The notes beneath the pieces are model-generated. The model saw only the letters and a program-made list of their open reading frames with translations, did not search any database and was not told the DNA's origin. 64,000 nucleotides of DNA from Cyanophora paradoxa CCMP329. Lineage: Eukaryota > Plantae > Glaucophyta. Positions 1 through 47,545 of this stretch are shown one piece after another (the stretch's first letter is position 1; each line of letters opens with the position of its first letter). A program made the translations under genes and the position numbers. The stretch spans positions 248,001 to 312,000 of the forward strand of contig QPMI01000416.1 of the NCBI GenBank assembly GCA_004431415.1, read 5' to 3'.

Positions 1-1
1 C

Positions 2-1132: not shown

Positions 1133-1375
1133 TTTCTTTTTCAAATGTAAGACGAGATTATATTTCGAGAGATTCAACGCATCGGTTCTGACGGGACTCC
1201 TTTCTATATTCATACAGATCACGCTCCCTTTAAGGCGTGGGGCGGCACGCAACTGCGTTTCAAAAAATAAGAGGCGGCAAGCAAAAGCTAGCTATAGCCG
1301 GAGGCAAGGCTGCCTCCTTGGCTGCCGCCCCATCTCTTACCACTTACCTCGAACGAATTGTCTTCCAATGTCCAC

Positions 1376-1747: not shown

Positions 1748-1846
1748 CGATAATAGCGACGGGATTTATTTTTCGATAATATCACGCGATCAGTTCGAGC
1801 GCGCTATTCCTTTTATATTATAGCGGAGCGTTTTCTTTAAGGCGCA

Positions 1847-2257: not shown

Positions 2258-2786
2258 GCTCCTCTCGAGTCATTCCTGCATTATATTCATCGAAGCAGCA
2301 GTTGAATTCTTTTATGTTGCTCAGGACGCTGGAAAAGCAGACGTACTCGCAATTGCGCCTAATCGTTGGACTGATTCCGCAGAGCCTCTGCGTGGTTATC
2401 AGCAGCGAGATACGGTAGTGCCTTCCGGATGTAAATAGCTTCTGCAGCAGCCGGTTGTTGTGTACGTTAATCGAGAAATCGTCAAGCAGATCATCTAAGA
2501 TAACCGCTGTTATCGGGGCCGGCTTGCCTCCGGCGATTAAACTTTTTTGACGATGCAGCAGATTAAATACGATCTCTTCTTCCCAGCCTTCATAAATGTT
2601 CTCCTTGCGGGTTACATCGTTCCATTGACCTGTAAAAGCCGTTGAGCTGAAGATATATATCTCGGACAGCTGATCCACCGTTTTTGCAAGCAGATTCTTC
2701 AAATAAGTAGACTTGCCTGTGTTCGTCGGCCCCACCAGGAGGAAGCGCTTCGGGTGCTCGATTTTGCTTGCATCAAATATGTCCAT
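2043..2786 (-). CDS. A32/FtsK-like DNA packaging ATPase
   Basis: Walker A GPTNTGKS, Walker B VILDD, SGRHYRISLLITTQ and IRRN motifs; adjacent to MCP. Confidence 0.93.
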   Translation of the reverse strand: MDIFDASKIEHPKRFLLVGPTNTGKSTYLKNLLAKTVDQLSEIYIFSSTAFTGQWNDVTRKENIYEGWEEEIVFNLLHRQKSLIAGGKPAPITAVILDDLLDDFSINVHNNRLLQKLFTSGRHYRISLLITTQRLCGISPTIRRNCEYVCFSSVLSNIKEFNCCFDEYNAGMTREELKRLHLEYGHSYQVLVYDSSGYDRQYCVDKAPAAVSASGFSKFGRARSKRPDQKRVARADRAATERSRVSC

Positions 2787-2788
2787 AT

Positions 2789-4018: not shown

Positions 4019-4066
4019 TTTTCTTATGCTATTATCAAACGAAAATAATCTTGACGTAATAACAAG

Positions 4067-4945
4067 ATGAAAGTGCGTGTTAATATCGACTCAAGAGAGA
4101 GGAGCGAAGGGACTCAGACTAATTTCAAATACGTCCTGCCTGAGCCGTTGACTAACGTTAAGTCGGTGCGAGTCGCATTGCTGGAACTCTTTCATAATCT
4201 TTATAATCTGACAAGCGGAGGTGTCATTACAACGTATACCGATGATCCTGCGAACGCCACGAAATCGCGGGCTAATAATTTCAAGGCGGGCGTCTACACG
4301 GCAACATCTCTTGTGAATTACCTGAACGCCATACTGAAGACACAGCAGTACAGCTATAGCGGAAGCACGTTCCAGCTTAAATATCTAGTCGAATTCGATG
4401 AGGTAACGATGAGACTGCGCTTCCTATGCGAGGCCCCTTTCGAGCTTGAGTTCTCTTCGAAAGAATTTGCCGGTCTTCTTGGCTTTCCTGACTCTTTGAC
4501 CGCCGCTTCTCTGGCGCTGGATACTGCTGAGACTATCGGTGGAATTGAATATACCGACGAGATAGTGAGCGACCGTCCTCTCGACTTCCTTTATCACTCT
4601 TACTTGCTGCTGCACATCGCTCAGATTAAGGGTTCGATAAAGACTAGTAATCCGTTTACGACGGGGGCGATTGCTAAGATTAACATCGATAGCAAGTTCA
4701 ACGAGCTCATCAAGTACACAGCAGACGATAGGACTCCTGTTTCCGGAATAGCCGGTACCACCGAATTTTCTGAGCTCGATATCAGCCTTCGTTATTTCGA
4801 TGGCAGCCTAGCGCTTTCAAACACTGATTTCTCTCTCATTCTAGAGTTTGAATTCGAAGACAGTGAGTATAGCAAGGCCTCGCTGAAGGGTAACATCCGT
4901 AGCTCTAACCTCGAATATCAGCCGTTCATGAGGACTTTCGCGTAG
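4067..4945 (+). CDS. Minor capsid (penton-like) protein
   Basis: N-terminal NIDSRER...F.Y.LP...NVKSVRV and C-terminal LDISLRYFDG...DFSLILEFE pattern typical of PLV/NCLDV minor capsid proteins. Confidence 0.8.
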   Translation: MKVRVNIDSRERSEGTQTNFKYVLPEPLTNVKSVRVALLELFHNLYNLTSGGVITTYTDDPANATKSRANNFKAGVYTATSLVNYLNAILKTQQYSYSGSTFQLKYLVEFDEVTMRLRFLCEAPFELEFSSKEFAGLLGFPDSLTAASLALDTAETIGGIEYTDEIVSDRPLDFLYHSYLLLHIAQIKGSIKTSNPFTTGAIAKINIDSKFNELIKYTADDRTPVSGIAGTTEFSELDISLRYFDGSLALSNTDFSLILEFEFEDSEYSKASLKGNIRSSNLEYQPFMRTFA

Positions 4946-4980
4946 AGACTCGCGCATTTATTTCTTATTTAAAATAAAAG

Positions 4981-5647
4981 ATGGAAACCAAGCGTGGACG
5001 TGGGAGGCCAAGGAAGATCCCTCTGGATGCTGTCCCTGAGCGAGCTCCTGCAGATATGAGTGCTCGCCGAGTTCAAACTCTCAGTGGAGACGTTGGTACC
5101 TACCCATCGTTAAGCGAGCTGGACGATCGGATGAGATCGATTTCGCTGCTGAAGCTGATCTTAACTCGATCTTCGAGCGGGTGCCAAATTCAAGGACTCG
5201 TAAGACAAATACTAAGCTGTTGAAGAAATTAGCTGATTCTGAGCTGTATGTAAGCGATAATGGGAAAACGAAACGCTTCTTTACCAAGTCGAATGGTAAT
5301 AAACTCACAACGGTTTCTGCTGTTACGGCTAAGCGGCTGATGGAGGGTATTGCTTTGGAAACGAAACTGGATAATCGAATATTGGAGGATAAACCTTCGA
5401 AGCAGAAGATTGAAAAAAGGAAGACCCCGCCGGAGCGGAGATTTCAGTTGTAAAGAAAGAGTCAGGTTCAAGCCTGCTCGAGAGGACCGCTGAGCTCGCT
5501 GAGAGCAATGCGACAGAGATGCCCACCGCTAACAAATCGATCCTGCGGATTGCGAGCAGCTCAGAAGAACCCGTCTCGGTTGTCCCAGTCAAGCCGATGG
5601 CTGCTGGATTTCGGCCTCTGGCTGTGATGCTTCGACGTTGGGAGTAG
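4981..5647 (+). CDS. AT-hook-containing conserved protein, split by two frameshifts
   Basis: KRGRGRPRK AT-hook. Adding one base at GG 5129-5130 and one in the A-run 5413-5418 gives one ORF homologous to 12949-13689 (AKRLMEGIALETKLDNRI vs AKSLVDGIAAETKNENKI; NKSILRIA vs NKSILRVA). Confidence 0.72.
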
Positions 5648-6251
5648 GAAAGTTCAGGCGTAGGAAAGGACGGTCTTCCTCAGAGATATGCTGTAGGGCG
5701 TAGGCATCGCGAGCTCTGGCAGCGGCCTCGGCAGTGGGATAGCTTCCAATGATCTTACGTTTTCCATTGATTGTCAACTGTGCTCTCCACTTGTTATCGC
5801 GTTTATGCAACGACACTCCAATGTAGCCTGATGTATTATTCCGACCAATCATCCCGCTTATCGCACGCGCAGTGTGTGAGACAAGAATCAAGTTCTCATC
5901 CGCATTGTTTAGTCGGTTGCCGTCTTTATGTCTCCAAGAAAAGCCAGGAGGTGCTTTCCCTTTGATATGCAAGTGCAACAACTTCGACTTCGGATCAATG
6001 TTGTTGTCAGCCATGCCAACATAATCTCCTGATGATGACCACATATAATAGCTTTTGAGTTCGGGGTAACGATGGGCTGATACGATAGCGCACTTCCCTC
6101 TCATTTTACTTCCTCCAAGCGGTATTCCAACACAGCCCTCGGGAATTACTGTTTCAACAACACGGTTTTGATTCCACTCGTCTTTGAACATGACCCGGCA
6201 TACACCTGCTCTCATCTCGTATTTAATGGTGTGTGTGTTAACGTTTGCCAT
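5589..6251 (-). CDS. HNH-AP2 homing-endonuclease-like protein
   Basis: HNH-like HKDGNRLNNADENL followed by AP2 domain SGYIGVSLHKRDNKWRAQL...IGSYPTAEAAARARD. Confidence 0.88.
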   Translation of the reverse strand: MANVNTHTIKYEMRAGVCRVMFKDEWNQNRVVETVIPEGCVGIPLGGSKMRGKCAIVSAHRYPELKSYYMWSSSGDYVGMADNNIDPKSKLLHLHIKGKAPPGFSWRHKDGNRLNNADENLILVSHTARAISGMIGRNNTSGYIGVSLHKRDNKWRAQLTINGKRKIIGSYPTAEAAARARDAYALQHISEEDRPFLRLNFPTPNVEASQPEAEIQQPSA

Positions 6252-6621
6252 TCCTCTTTTCTACAAGAAGAGTGCGATCTCTTTAAGTGCTGCATGGGTA
6301 CTGCATAGGCTATAAATAAATCCAGCAGTATGTTTTTTCTTTTACTCTCCGATCATCGATTTATTTATTTTAACGATTTCGAGACTTGGAAATGCTTGAA
6401 AGAAATCGCTCAGAATCGAACTTGAATCGTTGAGAGACAAAGCCATAGCACTACGAGCTGGACCAGGAGGAAGAAGACGATTTTGCGACTAGCTATGACC
6501 CTGAATGCTCTTTATGAGTCAGGTTGCAATCAGACACCGCTAACGTGATGACGAGGGGATGGGGTGGCGGATGACGGCGAAGAGGCCCAGTCCCGTAGAG
6601 TGGGCACAAAGTGGATTTTTT

Positions 6622-7207
6622 TCGTCGATTGTTCAAGGTCAGCAGGAGTTCCATAAGTACTTGAGCGACGTGATGTATGCGAACCTGAAGGACAACTCCA
6701 CAACACTCACGTGGCAGGTGCCGAACGACGTTTGATTAATTTGCTGGCATGCTGGTATCCGCGGCCGACGCGCACGGGATATATATTTGCACCGCAGGCA
6801 GCGGGGTCGGCGCCGTGGGGAGGGTTTGTGGGCGGCTCTGCGTGGTCCTGCGAGCATCTTGTTTTCATTGTGGGCGGGTATTTGGGATCTCTACTTCCAA
6901 CTTCGTCGTCTGGAAGTCCTCAAGAGAACATCCTCGTCCTGGACACGGCCGCCATCGGTGTGCATAAATCCCGCCCGCCGCCGAAAACGTACCGCCTTAA
7001 ACCATCTTAAATTGAAATCCGGAGCCTGCAAGGGCTACTACTTTAGATCTGTCATGTTTCAATTGAATACGCACTGATGCATGGCGCAACATCAGACAAG
7101 ACTGTCTTCTTCCAGATTCCAGCAGGGGCTGCTTTGATCGGATATCATAATCAAGTGGCGCCGCTGCCAGGCGATGTGTGTGCGGTTTACAGACCTCCAG
7201 GAGTAAC
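6622..7207 (+). repeat. Host internal duplication, copy 1 (1750-bp offset)
   Basis: Nearly identical to 8372-8612 joined to 20095-20439. Contains the uninterrupted target site GCA-TCTTGT-TTTCAT of element 2. Confidence 0.92.
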
Positions 7208-8612
7208 ACCGGAGCAAGCTGCAAGCGCAGGCCTTCCAAGGCTAAATGCCATTCAAAGAATAGGTACGATCGGCATTGAATCGATTTTGTGCTGCAATAT
7301 TTAACATCTGGAGGAAACCCGGAAGAAATCCAAAGCGCGGCGCCGACGCCAACGCCGACGCCCGTTCCCTTCAAGGCCTACGTGACGAATCATGCTGCGA
7401 CCGTCGGTGGGACTGAAAGGGGCAGCGTGTTTTCAACCATCAACGACGCTCTCTTCGTTGGTAGGCAGATGTTGATCCTCGTTTTGCCGTGGCGCATTTA
7501 CTTTGTGCGGCTGAGCCTCATTGCTCGCAAGGTTACGAAGGGAACTTTGATCGCTTCGCCAATAATGCATCAACCAGCGCCGCCTACTTTTCATCTCTAT
7601 GCAACTGGTAGCTTTAGCGTTTAATTGACTTCGGCGAATTGCTGCATGTCGGGTTCATCAAATTAAACTGAAGACCGACAGGGGGCGTTACGTCACTCTC
7701 ATGGAGGATCCAGTCACAAAGATCGTGTACGGCTTCACAACCTATTATGATAGATATGGGACGTTCCACGGGATCGCCATTCTGCGATGGAGTGAGTGCC
7801 GAGGGGTTATGAGAACTGATTATGATGGTTAAATTCGGAGATAACGACCGGATGTCTGTTTGCGTAACTGCCACGTGGGATTATCGATATCACCGTTAAT
7901 GCGTTTGCGGCGCTTGCAGACGGGTCGACGTCAGTGCCTTGCCAGACTATTGCTTTTATGCCGTCGGATGTCTCTGTCATTTTTCCACTTGTCGTTCTCT
8001 CTGAGCAAAAGGTATATATGCATTTGCATGAAAGACTTCTTTGCGACCTTTTGACGTCTGAGCGCAATGCTCTCCAGATCTGGATTGCGTTTGGATACAG
8101 ACGAGACATACAAGAAATGACCAACGGGCTCGTCGTGTTCGATCTGGTGTCGCTCTCGTGGTCGACTCGCATCCCAAGGAGCAGCTTCCTCACGACAGGA
8201 CCCAAAGAGCAATATTACACCAACGGCTTCGGTTGGCGTTACAAAGCGATCAAGACATACAGCGGGCCTTTCAGTGCGCGACAGCAAGCTTCCGGAGCGG
8301 TATCCAACGGCCGGCTGTACGTCTACGGAGGGGGGCGTCCGTACACCGAACTGTATTATGATAGTGCGGGGTCGTCGATTGTTCAAGGTCAGCAGGAGTT
8401 CCATAAGTACTTGAGCGACGTGATGTATGCGAACCTGAAGGACAACTCCACAACACTCACGTGGCAGGTGCCGAACGACGTTTGATTAATTTGCTGGCAT
8501 GCTGGTATCCGCGGCCGACGCGCACGGGATATATATTTGCACCGCAGGCAGCGGGGTCGGCGCCGTGGGGAGGGTTTGTGGGCGGCTCTGCGTGGTCCTG
8601 CGAGCATCTTGT
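6622..8612 (+). CDS. Host multi-exon gene segment with Kelch-like repeats
   Basis: Exon-like pieces SARQQASGAVSNGRLYVYGGG and HLVFIVGG, separated by short GT...AG intron-like stretches. Exon boundaries not resolved. Confidence 0.55.
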
Positions 8613-9016
8613 AGCTCAGCACTGCGCCGTGTCTCCAAAAAAATACCCGCAAAAAAATCAAAAACAAATCAGAAAACAAACCATTCCCAGTAACCCAATC
8701 TTGAATATCAGTAAATCTCAGTAAGCCTCAGTAACAAAAATTTAATTAATCGACGTTATATCATAATCTCGATTAATTATATCTTATCGCAGTTATATCT
8801 TTTTTATGCGCCTTGTCTCCAAAACAATTCCCAAGAAAAACAAACCATTCCCAGTAACCCTATTCGTATTCAACAGTAATCTCAGTAAGCCTCAGTAACA
8901 AAAATCGAATTTATCGAAGTTATATCTTAAATCTTATTTATCGAAGTTATATCATTATCTCGATTAATTATATTTAATCGAAGTTATATCCTTTTTATCC
9001 GCCGTGTCTCCCATGA
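8613..9016 (+). repeat. Left terminal inverted repeat of element 2 (404 bp)
   Basis: Reverse complement of 19685-20088 with about three mismatches seen by eye; internally built from ~185-bp direct repeats. Confidence 0.95.
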
Positions 9017-9459
9017 ATAACTAAGTAAGTTTAGTTAAAACCTCGAAAGAAAAACCTCTCATTTTTTACTGTATTTTTTGAACGATTTTTTACTGTATTT
9101 GTTACACTAGAAACAACAATAGAAACGACAATAAAAACAATAGAATTTTAATTGTTTTTGAATCGTATATACGTCAATATATCACTGTAATATATATCAT
9201 ATATATCATAGGAAATCGATTTATAGTCAAACCTATAACATATCAATTTGTGTATATGTGATATATATTCATATATGACGTCATGATGATGATGTATATG
9301 TATCTGATATATATGACACACCGGCTTATTCGGGAGATCATGACGATCACGGCGATGTGTATATTGTCATGATGTATATGTATATATGTGTGACGCAATC
9401 TGATTGGTGTGCTACTTGTTTTGTTGTATCCCCTTCAACTTCTCCCCAGGTTTATATCA

Positions 9460-9730
9460 CAGATAACATCTCAGATAATACCTCAGATAATACCTCAGAT
9501 AATACCTCAGATTATACCTAGCTCAGATAATACCTCAGATGATATCTCAGATATTAAATGTAATTTTGTTCGATTCCCATTGGACTATGCCACAGAGTAG
9601 TATTTACCTCTCTGAGGTATTTACCTTGAGGTATTTATCTCTCTGAGGTATTTACCTCGAGGTATTTATCTCGCCGAGGTATTTACTGCGAGGTATTTAC
9701 CGCGAGATATTTACCTCGAGGTATTTATCA
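9460..9730. repeat. Opposed arrays of ATACCTC / GAGGTAT motifs
   Basis: 12-bp tandem GATAATACCTCA (~9460-9553) followed by repeated GAGGTATTTA(CCTC) (~9597-9730). Confidence 0.85.
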
Positions 9731-9908
9731 CACGTCTTCGGTTTTTTCGATTATCGGCATCTTCAAACGCTTGTATCTCATCACCAGATCATCAAATCGC
9801 AACGTTCTGCATAGCGTTTTGAAGCGCTATGAAAGCTCTACGCAACTATGCTATTTTCTTAGTATTTCAAGCTACCTTATCATACAATATTCTTCAGAAA
9901 TCGACCTT

Positions 9909-10667
9909 TTACACACTGATTGTGGTCATTTCTCGCTGAATCCGAGCCATCTGACTCCTTTTAATTGCTTTTCTCTTCACAAACTTCTTAAAGCCCTTTA
10001 TATCATCATCAGTGAGTACTGCTCGATCAGTATAGGTCTTGATATCATAACCTTGCAGGCTAGCTATGACAGTTTGGTAATTGTAACCCCATAGTCTATG
10101 CAATTCCTTGTAGGTCTTCTTATCCAAACCACCATTGTACTCATCAAAGGCGCAATTGAACTCTTTCTCGTTCCCAAGAATATTGAAAAATACAACGAAC
10201 TCCACATTGCGACGAATGGTAGTAGAAATAGAACACAAACGCTGAACATTAAAGATTACCGAGATTGAATAATGTCTTCCACTCGTTACTAATTTAGATA
10301 ACACAGCCGAATTATGCATATCCAAATTTGAACCTATCATGTCATCGAGTATGATAACTAGGTTATTTCGCTTTTCGTTATTCTCAATTCGTTTCTTTTG
10401 CATACTGATCAATCTCAAAACAATGTTATCATCCCACTCTTCATAGATGTTATCGGGATGGGTGATGTCATTGAATTGTCCAGTAAAAGCTGTTGAACTA
10501 AATATAACGATTTGATCGATCTTGTCACGAAGCTCGTAAAGTAAGTATTTTGTGAACATTGTCTTACCTGTATTGGAGCGACCAACATTCAAAATTCTTG
10601 TCGGGATTCGAACCGTCTTACTCGGATCGAACTCCGGAATATCATCAAGATTTACTGTGTTATCCAT
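9909..10667 (-). CDS. A32/FtsK-like DNA packaging ATPase
   Basis: GRSNTGKT, IILDD, SGRHYSISVIFNVQ, IRRN; close homologue of 2043-2786. Confidence 0.93.
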   Translation of the reverse strand: MDNTVNLDDIPEFDPSKTVRIPTRILNVGRSNTGKTMFTKYLLYELRDKIDQIVIFSSTAFTGQFNDITHPDNIYEEWDDNIVLRLISMQKKRIENNEKRNNLVIILDDMIGSNLDMHNSAVLSKLVTSGRHYSISVIFNVQRLCSISTTIRRNVEFVVFFNILGNEKEFNCAFDEYNGGLDKKTYKELHRLWGYNYQTVIASLQGYDIKTYTDRAVLTDDDIKGFKKFVKRKAIKRSQMARIQREMTTISV

Positions 10668-10747
10668 TACAGTAATAAGATAAAAAACAAAATAAAGTAC
10701 ACACCTACAAATAATTGCGCTTCCTACACTAACAAAAGAAAAGAACT

Positions 10748-11972
10748 TTAGAAGTTCGAGACTTTCAGGGTAGAGATGTTGTAGCCATTAAGTACCATAA
10801 CATTGTGTCGGAGGGCATAGATATCAACCTGAACAGGAGCGGCATCAGTGCATCCGGAAACAGTGAGATCCATGTAACTCGAGCTGCTGTTGAAGAAATC
10901 CTGGTAACCCATAACCGAGTTCCGAAGCGAATCTTTTCCAGACTTGGAAAGAACAATTCCGTAAACATTTCCAGACTCGAATCCGTACGTGGTATTGCCC
11001 ACAGTAACACCCTTGTAGTGAGAAGGAATGTGATTGACAGCAGAGAGGAAACCGGAAATGGGTTTGTTAGATATATCCAGGGAGCGATTGTTGTGGAAGA
11101 TCTGGAACTGATCAATCTTAACAGCAGATTCATGACCGCAGAAATCCGAGTGAGTGTAGGTGTTAAGTTTGTTCACCTCTCGAACAGTCATCAGAATCGA
11201 GTGAACCAGACCAGAAACATTAGCGAGTGTAACCTCAACAGATTCACCAGCATCAGCGGTTTTGAGCGCTCGGGTCTTCTTGTGAATGACCTCTGTGATC
11301 GGGATGCGAATGCCACCTTGTTCGTTCGCCATTTTAAGGAGTGTCTCAGCCTCAGCCGAAGCAATGTTTACGAATTGGCAGATCAGAGAGCAATCCGCAA
11401 AGGTTACAGATCCACCAGCCGGAACTTGGACAATCGCAGCATCACGGAAATCAACCTCGATTGTTGGCATATCGGCTAGCGTACATAATGGGAAATAAGC
11501 TTCTTCCCAGAAAGCAGCGGGGATTCTAACGATGTATTCCATTGCTTCATCTGTGCTTTCACGATCTGTCTCTTTGAAGTAACCGAGAGAAGCATACATG
11601 CTGCTCATGGTAGCGTGATCATTATCGACCAGGGCGTTTACAGTGATCCAATCACCAGGGATAATATACTTGAAACCACCATGAACGAAACGGACCTCAT
11701 TAATAAAAGAAGAACCACCATTGGGAGGGTGCAGGCTACACCACCACCAGTGGCAATCTTGAAATAGAGCGAAACACCAGCAAGGAGTTGCTTGCGAGGT
11801 AGATCAAAGTAAGCGGTATTCTTGAAGCCAAAAGTGTTGCCCCGGGGACGAACTTGCTCGAGGAATGGTTTGTATTTGGGTTGGTTCCGATTTGGAGACC
11901 AGGGGAAAGATAAATTTGATCGGAACCGGGAGTTACGAGGAGTTCCTTCAGGGTAGTTCCAGTGAGTGCCAT
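10748..11972 (-). CDS. Major capsid protein with two apparent 1-bp frameshifts
   Basis: Restoring one base near 11876 and one near 11723 gives MALTGTTLKELLVT...PRGNTFGF...FDLPRKQLL...PGDW...STLKVSNF, colinear with the element 1 MCP. Confidence 0.85.
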
Positions 11973-12024
11973 CTCTTATGTTTAAAATACCAAAAGAAAT
12001 TTTTAAAATGCTTTATTAAACAGA

Positions 12025-12912
12025 ATGACGCGTTACTATCTCAATATTGATTCCAGGGACCGATCGGATGGAACCCCAACTAATTTCACATACAGACTCC
12101 CTTATGCGATCCAAAAGGTCAGAGCCTGTCGAGTAACGAACTTTGAGATGTTTCACAATCTTTACAACCTCTCTGAAGTAGGAACCCTCACCACACAAAC
12201 ACTCGATAATGCTGGGAACCCAAAGAATAGAAACAACGAAGTCCTCCGAGGTGCATATACACCGGATTCACTGGTGAATTATCTGATCGCTCGCATTGGA
12301 TCCCAGCCCTATAATCAAGCGGGTGGCGGAACTTACACTCGCCATTTCTATGTAACCTATGATCCCACAACATTGCTTCTAAGGTTCATGTGTGAGGTTC
12401 CATTCTCAATCACTATGAACACTCAACTCTTAGCCAATTTCTGTGGTTTTGAAAATGCTAACACACTGTACCAATCGAGTCCTCTATCATCTAATGTCAC
12501 AGTTGGAGCCTTTACTTATGCTCACTACATTGATAGTGAAATGCCATTAGATCTACTATTTAATTCCTATTTGCTTCTTCATGTTGATCCACTGAAAGGA
12601 AGATATGTGAGCAATAACAAACGAGATAACAATGCTATCGCGAAAATTGAGATTGACCAAACGGTTGGCAGTCTATTAAAATATGATTCATCGAATAATT
12701 CCATGATCGTTCACGAGCAGAATGGCTTGGTTGAGGTTGAGACTCTAGATGTGAGACTTTCTTACTGGAATGGAGCCACAGCAGACATTACTACCGACTG
12801 GTCGATGACTCTTGAACTGATTACTGAAGATGATAAAGATCTGACGAAAAAAGCATTGAAGAATGTCATAAAAGAGTTGGAGGGACTCTACCTGCCGTTC
12901 TCACGGTCATAG
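12025..12912 (+). CDS. Minor capsid (penton-like) protein
   Basis: NIDSRDRSDGTPTNFTY; homologous to 4067-4945 and likewise divergent from the MCP gene. Confidence 0.8.
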   Translation: MTRYYLNIDSRDRSDGTPTNFTYRLPYAIQKVRACRVTNFEMFHNLYNLSEVGTLTTQTLDNAGNPKNRNNEVLRGAYTPDSLVNYLIARIGSQPYNQAGGGTYTRHFYVTYDPTTLLLRFMCEVPFSITMNTQLLANFCGFENANTLYQSSPLSSNVTVGAFTYAHYIDSEMPLDLLFNSYLLLHVDPLKGRYVSNNKRDNNAIAKIEIDQTVGSLLKYDSSNNSMIVHEQNGLVEVETLDVRLSYWNGATADITTDWSMTLELITEDDKDLTKKALKNVIKELEGLYLPFSRS

Positions 12913-12948
12913 GAAATACTGTAGAATAAATTTGTTTCAATATTACAA

Positions 12949-13689
12949 ATGGCTCGCAAGACTCAACCCAAGAATTTCTTAGCCAAACCAGCCGCTGAAG
13001 CGGATGTTGGCAATGGTGAGAATGGAAGGAACTGGTATAAGAAATCGAAAGGACTCGCTGCATACGGAACTGGTGACCTCGAAAAGGAAGTCCATAAAGA
13101 ACGAAACCAATTCACCCAAGCCACTACGAAAAACAGTAATGATGATAATGCCCTTGTTGACCAAGTCCCACTGAACCGCATGCCCGGAGCCAAACGAGGA
13201 ATCAAGAAAGGACAGTTCAAATCATCCACAAAGGACAAGGTTGCCTCATCATCGACACTGCTGAAACTGCTTGATGGTGGTGAGCGACTCTACTCAACCT
13301 ATTCCGAGAAAGACCATCGCAACCGCTACTTTATTCGTTCAACCACTGGTGGACTGAAATCTGTAACATATCAGTATGCTAAGAGTCTTGTTGATGGTAT
13401 TGCAGCAGAGACCAAAAACGAAAACAAGATCAAGGAACAGCCAATCACAAAGGAAAAGGTTGAGAAGAAACCAGAAGTAACCCATGAAGTTATTCCCGAA
13501 CCTGTTCATGTGGCAAAAGACTCACCTACAGAATTGATTGCAAAGACCATTGAGTATCAAGACTCCAACAAAACGGATTTGCCGGTTCTCAATAAGTCGA
13601 TCCTTCGGGTTGCCACTTCGCAGGCTGATCCAGTCAACTCGATTCCAAATGCTGCCCAATGGTCTCTGGATTCGCCAAGCTTGGTATAA
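12949..13689 (+). CDS. Conserved Lys-rich protein of the capsid module
   Basis: 246-aa ORF syntenic and homologous to element 1 ORF 4981-5647. Confidence 0.75.
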   Translation: MARKTQPKNFLAKPAAEADVGNGENGRNWYKKSKGLAAYGTGDLEKEVHKERNQFTQATTKNSNDDNALVDQVPLNRMPGAKRGIKKGQFKSSTKDKVASSSTLLKLLDGGERLYSTYSEKDHRNRYFIRSTTGGLKSVTYQYAKSLVDGIAAETKNENKIKEQPITKEKVEKKPEVTHEVIPEPVHVAKDSPTELIAKTIEYQDSNKTDLPVLNKSILRVATSQADPVNSIPNAAQWSLDSPSLV

Positions 13690-14056
13690 GACCGGTTATC
13701 GCCGTTAAGGATCAATCTGAATAATATAATTTCTCAAACATTGTTAGCGCTACGTAACCAATCCTATCCCGTAGGCTCAAAACTTCTTCATTTTTATGGA
13801 GGCGTTGTAGAGCGAAGTGAAATATCCATAGGTAAATCACTTTAATCACCTGTTCTACCGGGTTCAGTGGTAGAAACTTGCAGCCGACAAGTGAACCTTC
13901 TGGGTATCGGTGGCTTTATCATTTTTCCAGCATCTTCTTTCGTACTGGATGCTCTGCAATCGGACCAAAATTTGACAGGAGTTTATTCGCTATATACAGA
14001 CAGAAAAACTACTTAAAGATTTCTTAACATATATTAAGAGAGTAGAAAAGGACAAC

Positions 14057-14314
14057 ATGCCAATCAGTGAGGCTCAGAAGCGTGCTACTTATCGTTATCG
14101 TAAAACTGAAAAAGGTCAGGAATATTTGAAAAAGTACAATGCCAGATTTGCAAAGCAAATGCGTGACTTATACCATACTGATGAGTGTTACAGAGCCATG
14201 AAGATCGTTGAGAGTTCCCAGCGTCTCTATGCTTCCAATGCAGTCTGCTTTGTGAAGTATCTCTATGGTGTCCCGTATTCTAACCGTGGTCGCAAATCGA
14301 AATATCTCTGTTAA
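14057..14314 (+). CDS. Small basic protein, possibly DNA-binding
   Basis: MPISEAQKRATYRYRKTEKG; upstream of the polymerase and preceded by AAAATTTGAC and CTTAAAG motifs. Confidence 0.65.
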   Translation: MPISEAQKRATYRYRKTEKGQEYLKKYNARFAKQMRDLYHTDECYRAMKIVESSQRLYASNAVCFVKYLYGVPYSNRGRKSKYLC

Positions 14315-14555
14315 TCGTTTTTCTCAGCGCGATCTGCTCTGAGAAACCCGTGGGAAACGCGCTGGAACCACAAATATAATCATTCTGTTATTTTTAGAGT
14401 TCGATGATCGAGCCAACCCTTTGTTATTTTTATGAATGCCCTCGACTAAATTTATTTTGTTGGAGACTTTTGGTTTTGTCGGTAAAATTTGACGCGAGTA
14501 TAAAAGTATTTAAAGAAAACTTTTGTAGGTATATATTAATAGAGTGAACAAAGAA

Positions 14556-17500
14556 ATGCCTCGACCAAGTAATCGAATTTCGAAAAATTTGCAGGATGAG
14601 ATTCTTGGCTACTACATGCAAGCAAAAGTAGAAGACAAATTGACCCGAGAGCAGGATATCTATTTCTTGAGAGAATTTACTTTCAAAGCAATTAGAATTC
14701 CAAAGTTGATTGATATCAGAGATACACTGAGAGGTATCGTAGAGCCTCGTTTGTATCGCAAGCAGGAGAAGAAGGAGAAGAGGGCTGAGAGAGCCGCTAA
14801 GAATGTTGAGAAGCAAAACAAGAAAGCGGAGCAAGCGAGAGAGCGGAAGCGCTTGACTCCTTTCCAGCAGATGATTGCTAACCTCCGTGAGTTTGTTGAA
14901 AACTCACCTGGAAACATGGTCACCCTGAATGTGAGACTCTTCCGTGAGTTGCAAGAGGGAGAACAAGCCCCTGCAAATGCAAACAGGGTCACTGAGAATG
15001 GTGTGACCTACATTGAATCGAAGAGGCTTCGGAACAATCGCCCCTTTGGTATCCAGTGTACCAAGGCAGCTTTTCTGAATGCTCTCGGTCTGGTTCAATC
15101 CACCTTCAATACGTTCCCATGTGTTGAGGGGACTGTCATTGCTGAATTTATTGCAGCAGTTATTGAGTTTAACTCGACCAATCAAGATTTCCGCTACCTA
15201 AAACTAATTGAGCAAGATACCTACCCCGATATTATGACAATTGAAAGAGTCATCACGACAGATAATGAAGAATACATCCCAAGAAATGAACAAGTCCTCA
15301 GAGACAATACAAACGCTCCAATGATTATTTCGAATTTCATTAAAAACGAAGGGAACCCCCAAGCCACCACATTCAAGGAAATGTTCTTGAAAGGTGATTC
15401 ATTCAAGGTTGGGAAGTGTGTTTTCGATGTCCTCATCAAATGGTTTGGAGGAGCGTTTGAGAAGGCTAAGACCAAAGGGAAATACAAGCGAATCGATTGG
15501 TCTTACAACGGACTCTTTAAGATGGTGAATGGGCGAGACCCTGTTGAAGGAGATGATTGGGGCATTTCTTTCAAGTCCATTTCGGAGAAGGTTCTTGACC
15601 CACTGCGCCTAGGCATGGTTACAATTGGAAAGGACGACAGAACCCCTGTCCCTGAACTGACTTTCCTGCCCAAGACCAGGAACACACACTTGACCCCTTC
15701 TGTTGCATATGTGAAGATTGAGAATGGTCACATGTATTTGTTAAATCACAATATTAAGGCTCTCACACAGTCCTTCAATGGCTCCAAGCCAAAAGATACC
15801 GATGTTCCACTCAGTTCTCGTTACAAGATTATAAAGCAAAGAAGGTTCAAGGAGTTTGCCACAAATCCCGATGACATTCTGAGAATTGTCAGGTCTGACA
15901 ATCCAAAGAACCAATCGAGCATTCGAATCTGCTATGGTGGTTCACTGGATGAACTACTCAGAGAGTTCATTGTGGTGCATAATTATCAGGTCCAACCTGG
16001 GTTCTCCCAAATCGGAAAGGCAACCCATATTCGTTTCACTATTGACGATAAGGATGTTGTCGTGACCCCACCTGGTAACGATACAGATGTGGAAACAGCT
16101 TTCGAGATTAGCTTCAAGAATGCTGAGTACAGAGATAAATTCGAGAAACTAAATCTGGATATGTATAGGTCTCTAATCAACACTTCCAACAAGAGTACTT
16201 ACAATGAGCAAACCATAAATGCATTCAAGAATGGAGTGCAGACTGCCCTTCGTGGTCTCTTTGATGTGGATGAGGAGACCTTTGATGAAATTCGCTATAA
16301 CACAGATATTTACGAGTTCGATATGTGCAAAGCATACCCTTACATTGTAGCCTTGATGATCAAATTCGTTCCTGTTCTCAGCAAGTTCGATGTCTTCAAG
16401 AGTGTGACAATCACAGATGCAGAGCAAATCGAGGAATACAGCTTCTATTACGTGAAACTGGACGACAAATACTTTTTCAAAGCCAAAGACAAGAACGGAA
16501 AGGAGTACGAAGCAAACACCTACAACAGATACAAGAGGATGATCATTGATTCCAAGTACAATGTTGTTCCTGGTTTGGTTCTCAAAAAGCATTTCGAGGA
16601 TTTCAAGGATGACATCTCCATCAAAGCGGTTCTGCGACCTTACAAACTCATTCCCAACCTTGCAGGCAACACAGTTGCTCGAATCTTAGATAGCGACCTC
16701 GATCCTGTTGATAAGAAGCAGATCTTGGTGAGTGCAATTGGGCAAACTGGAAAGCAACGAAATAGCAGAGTGAAAACCACCATTTTCCACAACAGAGACG
16801 ATGCGATCGAGTTCCAGAAACAGAACGGAGGGGAGGTTAAAATTTACCTCTTTGGTGAGACTCTTGCCACTTATGAGGAGACAGAGTTCGTTCTGTGTGA
16901 GGAAGAGATGACCGAACCCCATATCTACTATGTCAATCAGGTAGCAGAAAAGCAGCTCATTGATGGCTTCATGCCATTGTACACTACCCTCTTGTCAATT
17001 ATGAGGATGTGTATGTATGAGAAGTGTGTCGAACTCGCTAAACAGCAAATCCGACCACTCGCTTTGAACACCGATTGTGTTTATGGGATCGCTTATGAAC
17101 CCATTGCCCCAGTGTCATTCGATCGCAATGCCTTTGAGAATATTGGAAACTTCAGTGTGAAATGCTGCCCCAATTTTTCTAAAAAGTTTTCAGGTGAGAA
17201 GAAAGACCTCGAGGCAAAACGAATTCGTTACGGAAAGTTTGAGAGAGCGACTGACTTTGTGAAAATCGAGAACTACAGTTATACCAAACACTCTGTGGTT
17301 GATGAGTATGACACAACCGCGATTTGTGATTTGCTGGCTACACAAAAACGATGGGTTCTTCTCGGAGTAGTTCCGGGAGTTGGAAAGACTTACATGACAG
17401 TTGATTATGGGAAGCGTTTCCAAAATCCCCTCTACATTGTTCCCACCAATAAGCGAGTGAAAGAAATGAAAGAGCAAGGATTGAAAAATGTAAAGACAAT

Positions 17501-18624
17501 CTATGATGCCCTTCACCTTAAAATTGATGAGTCAAACATGGATGAAATTGTAGGAGGAAATGCCTCTGGTTTGGTAGAATTTGATTGCATTGTTATTGAT
17601 GAGATCTGTCAGTTTAAGATTGGGGAACTGGCAGCCTTGGACCACATCATGAATGAGCAGTTCCCAGATAAGGTATACATCGCCACAGGGGACCCGTACC
17701 AAAACCCACCCATCCAAGATATGAGTGTTGACCAAGATGAGTATTACCTCGATATTCTCCATCGCCTGTTCCCCAACGAATTGTTACTCCAAGTGAACAA
17801 GCGACATGAGACTGAGGAAGATCGCAGAAAGGTTGAGCAGATTCGAATCGATTTGTTCGAGAAAGGTTTGAGTGTAAGTGAGGTCCTTGCGAAGTATGGG
17901 TTCAAGGTTGTGGACGAATTGTGTTTACACAAACCGCAAGGGTGCAGAGGTGAACCTAGCCCTTCACAAAATGAACTACGGGGATAATGTTTCCATTTAT
18001 GCTGGCGGCATCAAAGTTGTTGCAAAGACTCGTATTGCAAAGGGCGGAAAAATAGTTCATAATGGATTTGTCTACAAGATTGTCAAGCTCTCAAAGGACA
18101 GTTTCATTATTGCTGACATTGCCAACAAGAAGGATGAGATTGTTCTCAGCAGGGATGCAGTCAAACATTTCGCCCTGGCTTATGCAAACACATGCCATGT
18201 TGTTCAAGGTGATACTATTCGCTGCAAAGGGAACAGGGTAGTTGTGTTCGAAACTGGGGCGCCATTTGTGTCAAAGAAGTGGCTCTATGTTGCTCTCACA
18301 CGAACCACAAGGCTGGATGATGTCGTTATTTACCATGATAATTTCGAAATGGCTCACTGGAAGGTGTGGAAGAGAGAGAATAACGAGAAAATATCGACTT
18401 ACAAGGATCAGGACCGAGCAGCAAACAGACAATTCGATGAGCATGATTACATCACATGGGATTGGATCAAGCAGCGATATGGGAAGCAGTATGGGCATTG
18501 CCTGCGATGCTACAATGCCATGGACTTTGAAGATATTTCGGTAGATCGAATTAATAATGCTGTGGCTCACGTTACCAAAAATTGTTTCCTCTCTCATATT
18601 AAGTGTAACTGCGCCGCCCAATAA
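14556..18624 (+). CDS. Fusion of OTU-like domain, PolB polymerase core, SF1 helicase and C-terminal HNH/Zn-like domain (frameshift near 17920)
   Basis: GKCVFD...NGHMY (Cys/His); PolB motifs FDMCKAYP, KQILVSAIG, LNTDC; helicase motifs GVGKT, IVIDE, GDPYQNPP, NKRH, TCHVVQG, YVALTR; C-terminal CLRC...SVDRINN..H...N...CN. Confidence 0.85.
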
Positions 18625-19683
18625 TGGATAGTGTATTATCATTCAAAAAGTATAGGCAGAAACTGATTAATGAAAAAGTGAGTTTTGATGAAAAAGAGTT
18701 GAAAAAGAAATTCAAAAACTCAGAACTCCAACAAATCTACAAGAAACCAAGGAAACCCAAATCGTTTCTTCGCATAGTGGCAAAGCCTAGATCGTTTCAA
18801 ATCGATATAACATATTTCAGAGGGTTTCAGACTGCCAACAATGGCATTTTCAAAATGCTTAGTTTCGTAGACATACTTAGTCGCAAAGGATTTGTTTATC
18901 CTTTTAAAAACAGCAGTGAGATCCCGAGTATTTTAAATAGGTTCAAGCAAGAAGCAGGCAAAGTTAATGCTCTCTCTGGGATAATGAGTTCTCCCAAGCA
19001 GTATACCGAAATTGGTGCAGTGAACATGGTGTGATGCTTTACACAGATGTGGCAAAGGATGACCACATCACAGTAGGAGATAAACTGGGGATTATTGATA
19101 GGTTCACTAGGACTTTCAAACAGTATCTCAGAAAAACGATGACAGCAAAGGGAACCACGAAATGGATCGATCTACTTAGTGATGTTATTGACTTGTATAA
19201 TAGCAGTCCCCATTCGGCATTGAAAAATGACTCACCGAATGCAGTGTATACAAATGAAGATAAACAGTTATTTATTTACATGAGAGATACTGTTCACAAC
19301 AATCGTGTAAAGGAGGCTGATACTAATCAAGTGAAACCAGGAGACACAGTTCGAGTTTTGCAACCGAAGGGTTATTTGAAAAAGAAGGTGCGCAATTCAG
19401 TCAGAAGGTCTACACTGTTGCAAAGGCTGATAGGAATCGTTTCAAAGTGCTTGAAGATAATGATGGTGAGGAAACGAAAGAAGTGAAGAGGAGATTTAAG
19501 AAGCAAGAATTGCAAAAGGTGAATAAAGATGATATCATAAAGATCCCATCGCAAAAAAGAATTCAGCAGGTTAATAAGACGAATAAAGTGAATCGATTGG
19601 TAGCAAAGGAAGGCATAAAACCCAATCGAAGTAATGTTGTAAGGAGAAGATACAATCTGAGAAGTGGTTTAACGAAACGCTAA
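18624..19683 (+). CDS. Retroviral-like (rve) integrase with two apparent 1-bp frameshifts
   Basis: FQIDI, FVDILSRK, (G)DNEF, GIIDRFTRTFK, YNSSPHS..P, GDTVRV. One extra G at GGG 18978-18980 and one at 19369-19371 join the three ORFs. Confidence 0.9.
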
Positions 19684-19684
19684 A

Positions 19685-20088
19685 TCATGGGAGACACGGC
19701 GGATAAAAAGGAAATAACTTCGATTAAATATAATTAATCGAGATTATGATATAACTTCGATAAATAAGATTTAAGATATAACTTCGATTAATTCGATTTT
19801 TGTTACTGAGGCTTACTGAGATTACTGTTGAATACGAATAGGGTTACTGGGAATGGTTTGTTTTTCTTGGGAATTGTTTTGGAGACAAGGCGCATAAAAA
19901 AGATATAACTGCGATAAGATATAATTAATCGAGATTATGATATAACGTCGATTAATTAAATTTTTGTTACTGAGGCTTACTGAGATTTACTGATATTCAA
20001 GATTGGGTTACTGGGAATGGTTTGTTTTCTGATTTGTTTTTGATTTTTTTGCGGGTATTTTTTTGGAGACACGGCGCAGTGCTGAGCT
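19685..20088 (-). repeat. Right terminal inverted repeat of element 2 (404 bp)
   Basis: Reverse complement of 8613-9016. Confidence 0.95.
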
Positions 20089-23000
20089 TCTTGTTTTCAT
20101 TGTGGGCGGGTATTTGGGATCTCTACTTCCAACTTCGTCGTCTGGAAGTCCTCAAGAGAACATCCTCGTCCTGGACACGGCCGCCATCGGTGTGCATAAA
20201 TCCCGCCCGCCGCTGAAAACGTACCGCCTTAATCCATCTTAAATTGAAATCCGGAGCCTGCAAGGGCTACTACTTTAGATCTGTCATGTTTCAATTGAAT
20301 ACGCGCTGATGCATGGCGCAACATCAGACAAGACTGTCTTCTTCCAGATTCCAGCAGGGGCTGCTTTGATCGGATATCATAATCAAGTGGCGCCGCTGCC
20401 AGGCGATGTGTGTGCGGTTTACAGACCTCCAGGAGTAACGCGCGAGCAACCTAATGACCGGAGCTGGGTCAATGCGATTCAAAAAATAGGTATGGGGAAC
20501 TGTTCGATGGCCAGTCTTAAGATTGCAATATTTACGATGAATCAGAAATCCGATATCTGCATCCCTGCACCGCGGAGACGCCAAGCCCGAGCCCGTCGCC
20601 CAGCCCGTTGCCGACTGCGAGCTCGAGCCCGAGCCCGTCGCCCAGCCCGTCGACGACTGCAAGCCCGAGCCCGAGCCCGTCGCCCAGCCCGTCGCCGACT
20701 GCGAGCCCGAGCCCGAGCCCGTCGCCCAGCCCGTCGCCGACTGCAAGCCCGAGCCCGAGCCCGTCGCCCACCTGCAGCCCGTCGCCAACTGCAAGCCCGA
20801 GCCCGAGCCCGTCGCCGAGCCCGTCGCCGACTGCGAGCTCGAGCCCGAGCCCGTCGCCCAGCCTGTCGCCGACTGCAAGCCCGAGCCCGAGCCCGTCGCC
20901 CAGCCCGTCGCCGACTGCGAGCCCGAGCCCGAGCCCGTCGCCCAGCCCGTCGCCGACTGCAAGCCCGAGTCCGAGCCCGTCGCCCAGCCCGTCGCCGACT
21001 GCGAGCTCGAGCCCGAGCCCGTCGCCCAGCCTGTCGCCGACTGCAAGCCCGAGCCCGAGCCCGTCGCCCAGCCCGTCGCCGACTGCGAGCCCGAGCCCGA
21101 GCCCGTCGCCCAGCCCGTCGCCGACTGCAAGCCCGAGTCCGAGCCCGTCGCCCAGCCCGTCGCCGACTGCGAGCCCGAGCCCGAGCCCGTCGCCCAGCCC
21201 GTTGCCGACTTCGACGCCGAGCCCGAGCCCGTCGCCCAGCCCGTCGCCGACTGCAAGCCCGAGCCCGAGCCCGTCGCCCAGCCCGTCGCCGACTGCGAGC
21301 CCGAGCCCGAGCCCTTCGCCCAGCCCGTCGCCGACTGCGAGCCCGAGCCCGAGCCCGTCGCCCAGCCCGTCGCCAACTGCGAGCCCGAGCCCGAGCCCGT
21401 CGCCCAGCCCGTCGCCGACTGCAAGCCCGAGCCCGAGCCCGTCGCCCAGCCCGTCGCCGACTGCGAGCTCGAGCCCGAGCCCGTCGCCCAGCCCGTCGCC
21501 GACTGCGAGCCCGAGCCCGAGCCCGTCGCCCAGCCCGTCGCCGACTGCGAGCCCGAGCCCGAGCCCGTCGCCCAGCCCGTCGCCGACTGCGAGCCCGAGC
21601 CCGAGCCCGTCGCCCAGCCCGTCGCCGACTGCGAGCCCGAGCCCGAGCCCGTCGCCCAGCCCGTCGCCGACTGCGAGCCCGAGCCCGAGCCCGTCGCCCA
21701 GCCCGTCGCCGACTGCGAGCCCGAGCCCGAGCCCGTCGCCCAGCCCGTCGCCGACTGCAAGCCCGAGCCCGAGCCCGTCGCCCAGCCCGTCGCCGACTGC
21801 GAGCCCGAGCCCGAGCCCGTCGCCCAGCCCGTCGCCGACTGCGAGCCCGAGCCCGAGCCTGTCGGCCATCATTTCGCCGCCAGTAGTTTCGGCATCTGAT
21901 CGTGCGTGTATCTGTCGCAAGTGGTTCCATTCCACAGGTCCGCTTATGCACAGATGCAGACAAGCAGCAGGAGTGCGCGCTGCAAAAATTGGAGACCCGC
22001 TTAATTGGTGTCAACCGCGTGTCCGTTTCATGGAACGCAAGCGGAAATTGCGCAGAATACGCCATTGGGGTCTTTGAGTACAATGCCTCTGCTGTTATGC
22101 AGCTTCCGGCGACATCTGCGAAATGGCTGTCGACAGTCCTTGCAAAAGATGCGGGCGGGTTCGTATTGCGAGCTCAAGATCAGCGTTTGCAATACGGAAT
22201 GGTGTATCTGCTTCGGGCAGTGCTCCATGGGGAGCTTGAGGCCAAGTTGTCGAACTCTTTTCAAACCCGACAGCAACTGCCCCCAGTCTCCACTATCTGC
22301 CAATTTCCTCGTGAGCACACTTGCTGCGGTTGTTTGTTCGCTGGATTACACTGCGTGAATTCGAGTCCGCTTACAATATTTGCAATTGATGCGTATATTT
22401 CGTAGAAGTGTCGCGGGATGGTTCGAACATGCTCTACACTGTGACTGTTACGCAGAAGGGCTCATCGTGGGTCCTTCTATCTTGGGGTAAGCTGGTTCAT
22501 ACGCGAAAAAATGAGACTGAACTCTGGATCTAACGTTGGCCCCGCAGAAAGCTTCGAATTTGCAGAGGCAGCTTTCAGTGCTAGAACTGGGCCATTGGAG
22601 CAGGCCTTGGTGTATCAGTCTGGTTGGGCAGCTCCCAACTTCACTGTAATGCTCACGGGCCGGGATGGAAAACGCTTCGAGTGGACCGATATCTTTTCCG
22701 CATACTGGAACGCGACGGGTCTCCCGACGGGCACGGACTTCGGTGTGAGCGTGCAGCAGGGATGGGTGGGTATGCTCGAATCATTCCCGCTGGATCGCGC
22801 ATTCGTGCGGACACTTTCTGGTACGTATACTTACATTTGCAATTGTAGATCAAGCCATGTGTCGGAATATCAGTATATTCTTGACGGCTGTTGCAGATGC
22901 GGACGCTTCACCCGCTGTCAATATTAATGACACGACGTCAACCGGGGCCGCTTTCGAGATCCCGCTGTCATTCTTTTTCTCGGACGCGGAGAAAGCAGAG

Positions 23001-46912: not shown

Positions 46913-46930
46913 TCTAATATAAAAGCAAAC

Positions 46931-47539: not shown

Positions 47540-47545
47540 TAAGGC

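What the first reader, a model, noticed from the sequence alone, without database searches (positions are those of the whole stretch)
8613..20088. Complete minimal (11.5 kb) integrated virus with its empty target site in view
Seen: 404-bp TIRs, AG...CT ends, a 6-bp TSD confirmed by the uninterrupted copy at 6857-6862, and only about seven genes with no adenain-type protease. Established: 6-bp TSDs and rve integrase are Polinton hallmarks, but canonical Polintons are usually larger and carry a maturation protease. Inference: a compact PLV lineage combining Polinton-style integration with an atypical replicase.
Basis: partly seen in the sequence, partly recalled or inferred. Interest (0 to 1): 0.75.

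Follow-up and report, generated by a model that had tools for sequence, protein, structure and literature searches.

The report
Compact Tlr1-type provirus in an alga
This is a real, neatly bounded 11.5-kb, seven-gene virus genome inserted into the DNA of what is very likely the alga Cyanophora paradoxa; it is unusually small, but its gene set matches an already described kind of Polinton-like virus and its capsid gene family was already catalogued in that alga.

Summary
Observation confirmed: 404-bp TIRs (3 mismatches), AG...CT ends, 6-bp TSD, and an uninterrupted paralogous target at 6857-6862. The seven genes are A32 ATPase, double-jelly-roll MCP, likely penton, two unknowns, a fused replicase and an rve integrase; no protease was found. 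The 'atypical replicase' carries the motifs of the described pPolB-S1H-HNH ('Tlr1-like helicase') fusion, and rve + S1H + no protease is the published Tlr1 architecture. A near-identical MCP is listed from Cyanophora paradoxa by Bellas 2023, in unnamed clusters; 156 glaucophyte elements tabulated in 2025 have no protease. Five frame breaks are probably assembly errors: short-read contigs differ by one base at four of them, and 60 of 72 listed coding differences are synonymous. The family is multi-copy with other flanks. What remains is small size (no fibre or lipase gene seen), an unplaced capsid lineage, an Asp-for-Glu integrase site, and a neighbour with the same capsid block but another polymerase. 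The scan noted such sibling viruses before on other pieces of this genome. New member of a known kind; interest 0.33.

The parts
8607..8612 (+). left copy of 6-bp target-site duplication (TCTTGT)
8613..9016 (+). left terminal inverted repeat, 404 nt, begins AG; holds internal 83-nt and 53-nt repeats
9017..9908 (.). non-coding AT-rich arm with 12-bp (9460-9553) and 14/31-bp (9600-9729) tandem arrays; function unknown; differs in some related copies
   Evidence: loose ends before 9753
9909..10667 (-). A32-type genome packaging ATPase, 252 aa
   Evidence: Pfam PF04665 E 1e-15
10748..11972 (-). [quoted passage not shown]
   Evidence: 60% identical to the intact neighbour MCP, whose model matches PBCV-1 MCP at Z 30.2, rmsd 2.6, 333 aligned; near-identical protein in PMC10120064 Table S2
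12025..12912 (+). likely minor capsid protein (penton), 295 aa
   Evidence: 40% identical to the syntenic gene of the neighbour and related to a gene beside the third MCP; no Pfam match; penton label inferred from position and recalled motif
12949..13689 (+). unknown gene X, 246 aa, conserved beside the penton in the neighbour; its 3' end may be affected by further indels
   Evidence: indel rows at 13654 and 13691
14057..14314 (+). 85-aa basic protein; 6 of 8 listed differences synonymous; replaced by other sequence in some copies
   Evidence: joint 14048-14309
14556..18624 (+). replicase, about 1,355 aa: N-terminal region, vOTU-like Cys288/His392, PolB palm motifs A/B/C, Pif1/RecD-type SF1 helicase, C-terminal HNH; one frame break near 17,890-17,930
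18624..19683 (+). rve-type integrase, about 350 aa; two frame breaks near 18977 and 19371; third catalytic position reads Asp instead of Glu
19685..20088 (-). right terminal inverted repeat, ends CT
20089..20094 (+). right copy of the target-site duplication
6622..7207 (+). uninterrupted paralogue of the target region (target hexamer at 6857-6862), part of a host-like kelch/Ser-Pro-rich gene
   Evidence: Kelch PF24681 E 6e-5, below its cut-off, for 7868-8485
1..6459 (.). neighbour element A (right part): same ATPase-MCP-penton-X block, HNH-AP2 gene, N-terminus of a likely polinton-type pPolB; probable end at 6459 with a similar AGCTC...GTCTC terminus

Best explanation
The element is an integrated, multi-copy Polinton-like virus with the Tlr1-type gene set (capsid block, fused polymerase-helicase, rve integrase, no protease), very likely in the glaucophyte alga Cyanophora paradoxa, and this copy was likely inserted recently by the family's own integrase. 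Shown: ends, TSD, gene set, capsid fold of the sister MCP, conserved catalytic motifs, other insertion flanks, purifying selection. Inferred from known families: a free linear copy would be primed at both TIR ends by the replicase's N-terminal terminal-protein domain, released by the vOTU protease; the SF1 helicase would unwind and the exonuclease-less palm would extend; the A32 ATPase would package the genome into a jelly-roll capsid without proteolytic maturation; the integrase would join the ends to a 6-bp staggered cut, here in an exon-like stretch of a host gene. The five frame breaks are probably errors of the assembly.
For: Ends and TSD. ATPase PF04665. MCP fold: top VIA rows are all double-jelly-roll capsids, Z 30.2 to PBCV-1, modelled on the 60%-identical neighbour. 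Replicase: Cys288, His392, Asp589 (motif A), Lys-Lys...Gly (motif B), Thr-Asp 839-840 (motif C), Walker A Gly-x-Gly-Lys invariant in 6 of 6 aligned proteins; profile hits Pif1/RecD2/Dda helicases (E 2e-10 to 3e-4) and, weakly, an HNH (E 0.26). The same replicase-then-rve cassette at a contig end, with ATPase or capsid-like genes upstream, in 2 of 6 fetched loci (L001, 19,961-bp contig; L003, 17,621-bp contig). Family held at 0.73-0.75 of words by 19 of 24 listed runs, all one organism label. Body depth 5-13 times the flank in 4 of 4 runs, and 3-5 contigs per run leaving the TIR end into other flanks. One-base differences at 4 of 5 breaks in every DNA run laid there. 60 of 72 listed coding differences synonymous against about 27% expected, in the frames on both sides of the breaks. 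Host: near-identical MCPs in C. paradoxa records.
Against: The palm domain rests on motifs alone: the AlphaFold model failed (pLDDT 35), its Foldseek hits cover only the helicase, and a profile comparison with the window's other polymerase found nothing. The first Asp of motif C is absent, which PMC5499653 read as an inactive polymerase and PMC11161782 as compatible with activity. The integrase has Asp where 3 of 3 relatives have Glu, and scores below Pfam's cut-off in pieces. The fifth break is not covered by a listed contig. The contigs are family-level, so they cannot clear this very copy. No fibre or lipase gene, although 89 of 156 glaucophyte elements have a lipase. No free virus relative of the capsid block in IMG/VR. 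Depth of contigs is not a copy number.
Confidence: 0.82

Rival explanations
1. It is a streamlined, helper-dependent form: it copies and integrates itself but borrows fibre, lipase or other virion parts from larger sibling elements or from a giant virus, or it is a deletion derivative of a longer family.
For: No fibre or lipase gene; 892-bp non-coding left arm, where other contigs continue with unlike sequence; relatives with the same replicase cassette lie on 17.6-20 kb contigs; siblings with fibre-like genes lie in the window; giant-virus insertions are reported in C. paradoxa (PMC12344493) and pPolB-S1H elements co-occur with giant viruses (PMC13215967).
Against: All modules that define PLVs are present and under purifying selection; contigs bridge penton-X, replicase-integrase and integrase-TIR as in the window; no deletion scar is visible.
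Confidence: 0.3
2. This copy is dead: the five frame breaks are real mutations, and only other copies are functional.
For: Breaks hit the three key genes; the short-read contigs are collapsed family sequences 1-3% away from this copy.
Against: TIRs differ at 3 of 404 sites; substitutions against the family are mostly synonymous, which decay would not give; all four resolved breaks are single missing bases; a sister MCP in PMC10120064 Table S2 reads through both MCP breaks and appears broken elsewhere; that paper reports such breaks as assembly artefacts; neighbouring elements are broken too.
Confidence: 0.2
3. The replicase's polymerase domain is inactive; the protein works as a primer-carrying helicase and host or helper polymerases make the DNA.
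For: Motif C lacks its first Asp in 6 of 6 relatives; no exonuclease domain (about 200 aa between vOTU His and motif A); this was the reading of PMC5499653.
Against: Motifs A, B and the Thr-Asp of C are invariant at 21-23% overall identity; PMC11161782 notes active polymerases with the same loss.
Confidence: 0.3
4. The structure is an assembly artefact joining a filled and an empty allele.
For: The target region occurs twice within 2 kb and its left 241 nt are identical.
Against: The two copies diverge gradually after 345 nt and have different outer flanks; contigs break exactly at 20089 in X1 and X12, as expected when filled and empty junctions both exist, and one X7 contig carries 28 TIR letters into the flank.
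Confidence: 0.04

Closest known systems
Tlr1 element of Tetrahymena and PLVs with pPolB-S1H ('Tlr1-like helicase') replicases (PMC5499653: passages and section 8 read; PMC11161782: passages and sections 9-10 read)
   Same: MCP, mCP, packaging ATPase, RVE integrase, no maturation protease, 1,000-1,400-aa vOTU-palm-S1H protein; HNH at the C-terminus as in PLVs; motif C lacking its first Asp.
   Different: Tlr1 ends in GIY-YIG, not HNH; this element is only 11.5 kb with seven genes; its MCP was not shown to group with Tlr1's.
Cyanophora paradoxa endogenous viral elements (PMC10120064 Tables S2 and S4, rows read; PMC12220804 Table S6, read)
   Same: Near-identical MCP (about 7 differences in some 295 residues by eye, gene_49165); of 156 elements 0 have a protease, 85 rve, 34 S1H, 49 pPolB.
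   Different: Those papers count the genes but, in the text I read, do not describe this element, its ends or its size; the MCP clusters (21 and 29) carry no group name.
Canonical Polintons/Mavericks (Polintoviricetes)
   Same: TIRs, AG...CT ends (recalled), 6-bp TSD, rve integrase, ATPase, MCP.
   Different: No exonuclease-bearing pPolB, no protease, smaller.
Mosaic polisuviruses with replicase turnover (bioRxiv 10.64898/2026.10.13.758929, Results read)
   Same: Neighbouring integrated elements with a shared capsid block and different replicases; that study includes a C. paradoxa contig.
   Different: Here the two capsid blocks are old relatives (60% MCP identity) and the replicases lie on opposite sides of the block.
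OmPLV of Oxyrrhis marina (PMC12721341, parts 2-3 read)
   Same: Helicase-polymerase fusion, no protease.
   Different: Helicase is N-terminal, exonuclease kept, tyrosine recombinase, no TSD, about 25 kb.

Membership tests
Polinton-like virus (broad sense) | double-jelly-roll MCP | tested here: met
   Model of the 60%-identical neighbour MCP, pLDDT 69; Z 30.2, rmsd 2.6, 333 aligned to PBCV-1. The element's own broken MCP was not folded.
Polinton-like virus (broad sense) | A32-type packaging ATPase | tested here: met
   PF04665 E 1e-15, above cut-off
Polinton-like virus (broad sense) | [quoted passage not shown] | tested here: inconclusive
   Syntenic conserved 295-aa gene; no Pfam match; not folded
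Polinton-like virus (broad sense) | terminal inverted repeats; size 14-40 kb as usually quoted | tested here: inconclusive
   TIRs met; 11.5 kb is under the quoted range, but 3 of the 87 element names on one supplement page imply 10.4-12.2 kb
Tlr1-type PLV (pPolB-S1H) | C-terminal SF1 helicase in a 1,000-1,400-aa protein | tested here: met
Tlr1-type PLV (pPolB-S1H) | PolB palm motifs A, B, C upstream, exonuclease absent | tested here: met
   Motif residues invariant in 6 of 6; motif labels are my reading against PMC5499653 and PMC11161782; no fold support
Tlr1-type PLV (pPolB-S1H) | vOTU Cys and His before the palm | tested here: met
   Cys288 and His392 invariant in 6 of 6; fold not confirmed
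Tlr1-type PLV (pPolB-S1H) | terminal-protein domain, TPR1 and TPR2 | tested here: inconclusive
   model too poor
Tlr1-type PLV (pPolB-S1H) | C-terminal homing endonuclease (HNH or GIY-YIG) | tested here: met
   Cys-Cys/His pattern shared with L001, L003, L004; HNH hits weak (E 0.24-0.26)
Tlr1-type PLV (pPolB-S1H) | RVE integrase and no maturation protease | tested here: met
   Pieces align with an rve (PF00665 E 7e-12) protein of L001; 6-bp TSD; no protease match
Polintoviricetes (canonical Polintons) | exonuclease-bearing pPolB plus cysteine protease | tested here: not met
Aquintoviricetes or a named PLV capsid group (PgVV, TSV, GKS, Trimcap, Zephyr and others) | MCP/ATPase grouping with the named clade | not testable with these tools
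   Published MCP profiles are not held. Indirect: C. paradoxa MCPs fall in unnamed clusters 21 and 29; only 2 of 156 hit the PLV MCP profiles of PMC12220804; 4 relatives at 25-28% in 1.84 billion proteins
Virophaviricetes | virophage-type MCP and protease | tested here: not met
   No protease; Sputnik and mavirus MCPs score Z 17.4 and 16.9, far below Z 28-30 for PBCV-1 and faustovirus

The most novel reading that the evidence does not exclude
An autonomous, still mobile virus at the low end of PLV genome size (seven genes, no fibre, lipase or protease), from an unnamed glaucophyte capsid lineage that pairs with at least three kinds of replicase in one genome; it would define the minimal PLV gene set and offer a cultivable host in which to settle whether pPolB-S1H proteins are active polymerases, with an Asp-Asp-Asp variant of the rve integrase as a further oddity.
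Probability: 0.3. Interest if true: 0.6.

Novelty: new member of a known kind. Interest (0 to 1): 0.33.

Why it matters
As a kind of element it is known. Its use is as a small, clean test case: two papers disagree on whether the polymerase domain of these fused replicases is active (PMC5499653 against PMC11161782), and my search for a biochemical test listed none. A multi-copy, conserved, seven-gene family in an alga that grows axenically (PMC12344493) makes that, and the minimal virion gene set, approachable. The insertion also appears to split a host gene, which shows the mutagenic load of such viruses.

Tried and rejected
No whole genome is held, so no census of copies. MCP searches: none at E 0.001 by word search; the MCP profile returned only one of its own members; no relative in IMG/VR for MCP, ATPase profile, integrase piece or the terminal 24-mer; no PDB sequence match. 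The MCP alignment was too diverged for a metagenome scan. AlphaFold of the replicase on 3 sequences failed; its fold search told only of the helicase; hhalign against the window's other polymerase was blank. The penton did not align with L003's candidate. No RNA holder listed; a possible RNA run (X20) covers 16 of 30 bins, mostly with contigs under 95% alike, so nothing is concluded on expression. First idea, that the element is nested inside neighbour A: rejected, because A appears to end at 6459 with a similar terminus and 2.15 kb of host-like DNA lies between (the loose end pattern is weak alone: 3 matches, 0.73 expected). Insertion polymorphism between cultures: the junction contigs differ among runs (empty form listed in X9 and X12, filled in X7), but 211 rows were not shown, so not claimed. 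The scan's index held no look-alike of this replicase and nothing near this place. Searches for a paper describing this element listed only surveys; the figshare and Zenodo files of PMC10120064 and PMC12220804 and the bioRxiv supplements were not seen and may well list this very element with its length.
Full report
Observation. The arms 8613-9016 and 19685-20088 are 404 nt with 3 mismatches and stop matching at position 405. The element starts AG and ends CT, is flanked by TCTTGT on both sides, and the same left and right flanks are joined by one TCTTGT at 6857-6862. That site is a paralogue in a local duplication of about 590 bp, whose copies are identical for 241 nt, differ at 3 of the next 345 nt and then diverge; it shows the pre-insertion sequence but is not the empty allele. 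The element body is 41% GC against 49-53% in the flanks.

Gene content. Seven genes cover 78% of the element: ATPase (PF04665), MCP, likely penton, gene X, an 85-aa basic protein, a replicase and an integrase. A homologous ATPase-MCP-penton-X block lies at 2043-5587 (44%, 60%, 40% and 39% identity), and its intact MCP folds as a double jelly roll, best matching PBCV-1, faustovirus and other giant-virus capsids (Z 30.2-21), above Sputnik and mavirus (Z about 17). No protease, fibre or lipase gene was found among the 10 ORF pieces scanned, and only one gap, a repeat-rich 892 bp, could hide one.

The replicase. Three database proteins and six loci are related over most of its length; the full-length ones are single ORFs of 1,092-1,356 aa that run through the window's break into a helicase C-terminus and, in most, an HNH-like tail. 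Across six aligned proteins at 21-23% identity, Cys288, His392, Asp589, Lys720-Lys721-Gly729, Thr839-Asp840 and the Walker A residues are invariant. These fit the vOTU dyad and PolB motifs A, B and C (first Asp missing) of the pPolB-S1H fusions described in PMC5499653 (section 8 read) and PMC11161782 (sections 9-10 read); the labels are my reading of motifs, since the structure prediction failed. The helicase is Pif1/RecD2-like. L001 and L003 carry the same replicase-then-rve cassette at the contig end, on contigs of 19,961 and 17,621 bp. So the 'atypical replicase' is a described class, and PMC5499653 describes Tlr1 as MCP, mCP, ATPase, RVE and SF1 helicase without protease (passages).

The integrase. 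Its first two pieces align with L001's rve protein (E 2e-7 and 3e-8). The two aspartates are in place; the third site reads Asp where L001, L003 and L004 have Glu. With the exact 6-bp TSD this still points to rve-type insertion; whether this variant or a sibling's enzyme made it is untested.

Is it intact? Five frame breaks hit MCP (2), replicase (1) and integrase (2). Short-read contigs differ from the window by a single extra base at four of them in all DNA runs laid there (3 of 3 for MCP, 4 of 4 for the integrase); the listed contigs leave a gap over the fifth. Of the 79 best-supported differences shown (429 and 43 further rows were not shown), 72 are coding and 60 of these synonymous, against about 27% expected, in the frames on both sides of each break. 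The family is therefore conserved and functional in the recent past; this copy is probably intact, but collapsed contigs cannot prove it. PMC10120064 reports such breaks as common assembly artefacts (part 2 read).

Copies. Nineteen of 24 listed runs, all with one organism label, hold 0.73-0.75 of the sampled words; one of them may be the window's source. Depth over the replicase-integrase is 1292 against 116 in the flank (X1), 426 against 35 (X9), 47 against 3.6 (X7) and 912 against 136-178 (X12), and 3-5 contigs per run leave the TIR end into unlike sequence. This indicates on the order of ten to a few tens of copies at other sites; depth is not a true copy number. Depth over the capsid block is mostly 1.5 to 4 times higher at 85% likeness, as expected if sibling families share that block. 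Contigs bridge penton-X, replicase-integrase and integrase-TIR, but the left arm varies among relatives, so longer family members are not excluded.

Host and prior record. A C. paradoxa gene model is a close homologue of the window's third MCP, and Table S2 of PMC10120064 lists C. paradoxa proteins nearly identical to this element's MCP and to the third. That study counts 366 MCPs in the alga in two clusters without a group name. Table S6 of PMC12220804 lists 156 glaucophyte elements: no protease, 85 rve, 34 S1H, 49 pPolB, 89 lipase, and only 2 hits to its PLV MCP profiles. The host is thus very likely this alga (inference), the lack of protease is the rule there, and the capsid lineage is catalogued but unplaced; phmmer over 1.84 billion proteins found four relatives at 25-28%. 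bioRxiv 10.64898/2026.06.19.733378 (parts 2-3 read) does not mention Cyanophora.

Surroundings. The left neighbour ends, probably, at 6459 with a similar AGCTC...GTCTC terminus and carries the N-terminus of a likely polinton-type pPolB on the other side of the capsid block. A further element from about 46 kb has a distant MCP, two penton-like genes and a D5-type helicase, followed by a likely pPolB and fibre-like genes. One capsid lineage with three replicase types in 64 kb fits the mosaicism described in bioRxiv 10.64898/2026.10.13.758929 (Results read) and in earlier, unchecked notes of this scan. The insertion splits a reading frame of a host-like gene with a weak kelch match and a Ser-Pro-rich repeat; exon insertions are also reported for endogenous mavirus elements (PMC8547959 passages).

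Verdict. A real, well-bounded, probably intact compact PLV of the Tlr1-type architecture. Size is at the low end: 14-40 kb is the usual range (PMC12220804), though names on one supplement page imply elements of 10.4-12.2 kb (3 of 87 rows). It is a new member of a known kind, interest 0.33. The bolder reading, a truly minimal autonomous virus of an unnamed glaucophyte lineage and a tool for the open polymerase question, has probability about 0.3. Other papers seen only as passages: PMC8502044, PMC7805220, PMC12344493, PMC13215967; PMC12721341 parts 2-3 (21, 24). AG...CT as a Polinton end signature and the penton motif are recalled, not from a call.

Noticed in passing
window 1-6459: Right part of a sibling PLV: same ATPase-MCP-penton-X block (MCP intact, 60% identical), an HNH_3-AP2 endonuclease gene, the N-terminus of a likely polinton-type pPolB; probable end at 6459.
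   Followed up: partly
window about 46,000-64,000: Further viral DNA: two penton-like genes, a distant MCP (near-identical to a C. paradoxa protein in PMC10120064 Table S2), ATPase, D5-type helicase, then a split likely pPolB with an endonuclease VII-like insert, three related fibre-like genes (one with C1q). May be one element with two replicases.
   Followed up: partly
   Followed up: no
window 19097-19099: Third catalytic position of the rve integrase is Asp; three related integrases have Glu.
   Followed up: partly
window 14048-14309: In 3 of 3 DNA runs some contigs replace the 85-aa gene with other sequence: a swappable slot just upstream of the replicase.
   Followed up: no
window 17734-18573: Some contigs skip or replace 838 bp of the helicase C-terminus and HNH region in 3 of 3 DNA runs: a possible deleted subfamily.
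   Followed up: no
window 20584-21868: 30.5 copies of a 42-bp unit encoding a Ser-Pro-Thr-rich, mucin- or extensin-like tract of the interrupted host-like gene.
   Followed up: no
window 24250-31500: Frame-broken retroelement on the minus strand with reverse transcriptase and RNase H.
   Followed up: no
L001:7721-8686: A PLV-like virome contig with the same replicase cassette carries a gene that looks like a ribonucleotide reductase small subunit (by eye; not scanned).
   Followed up: no
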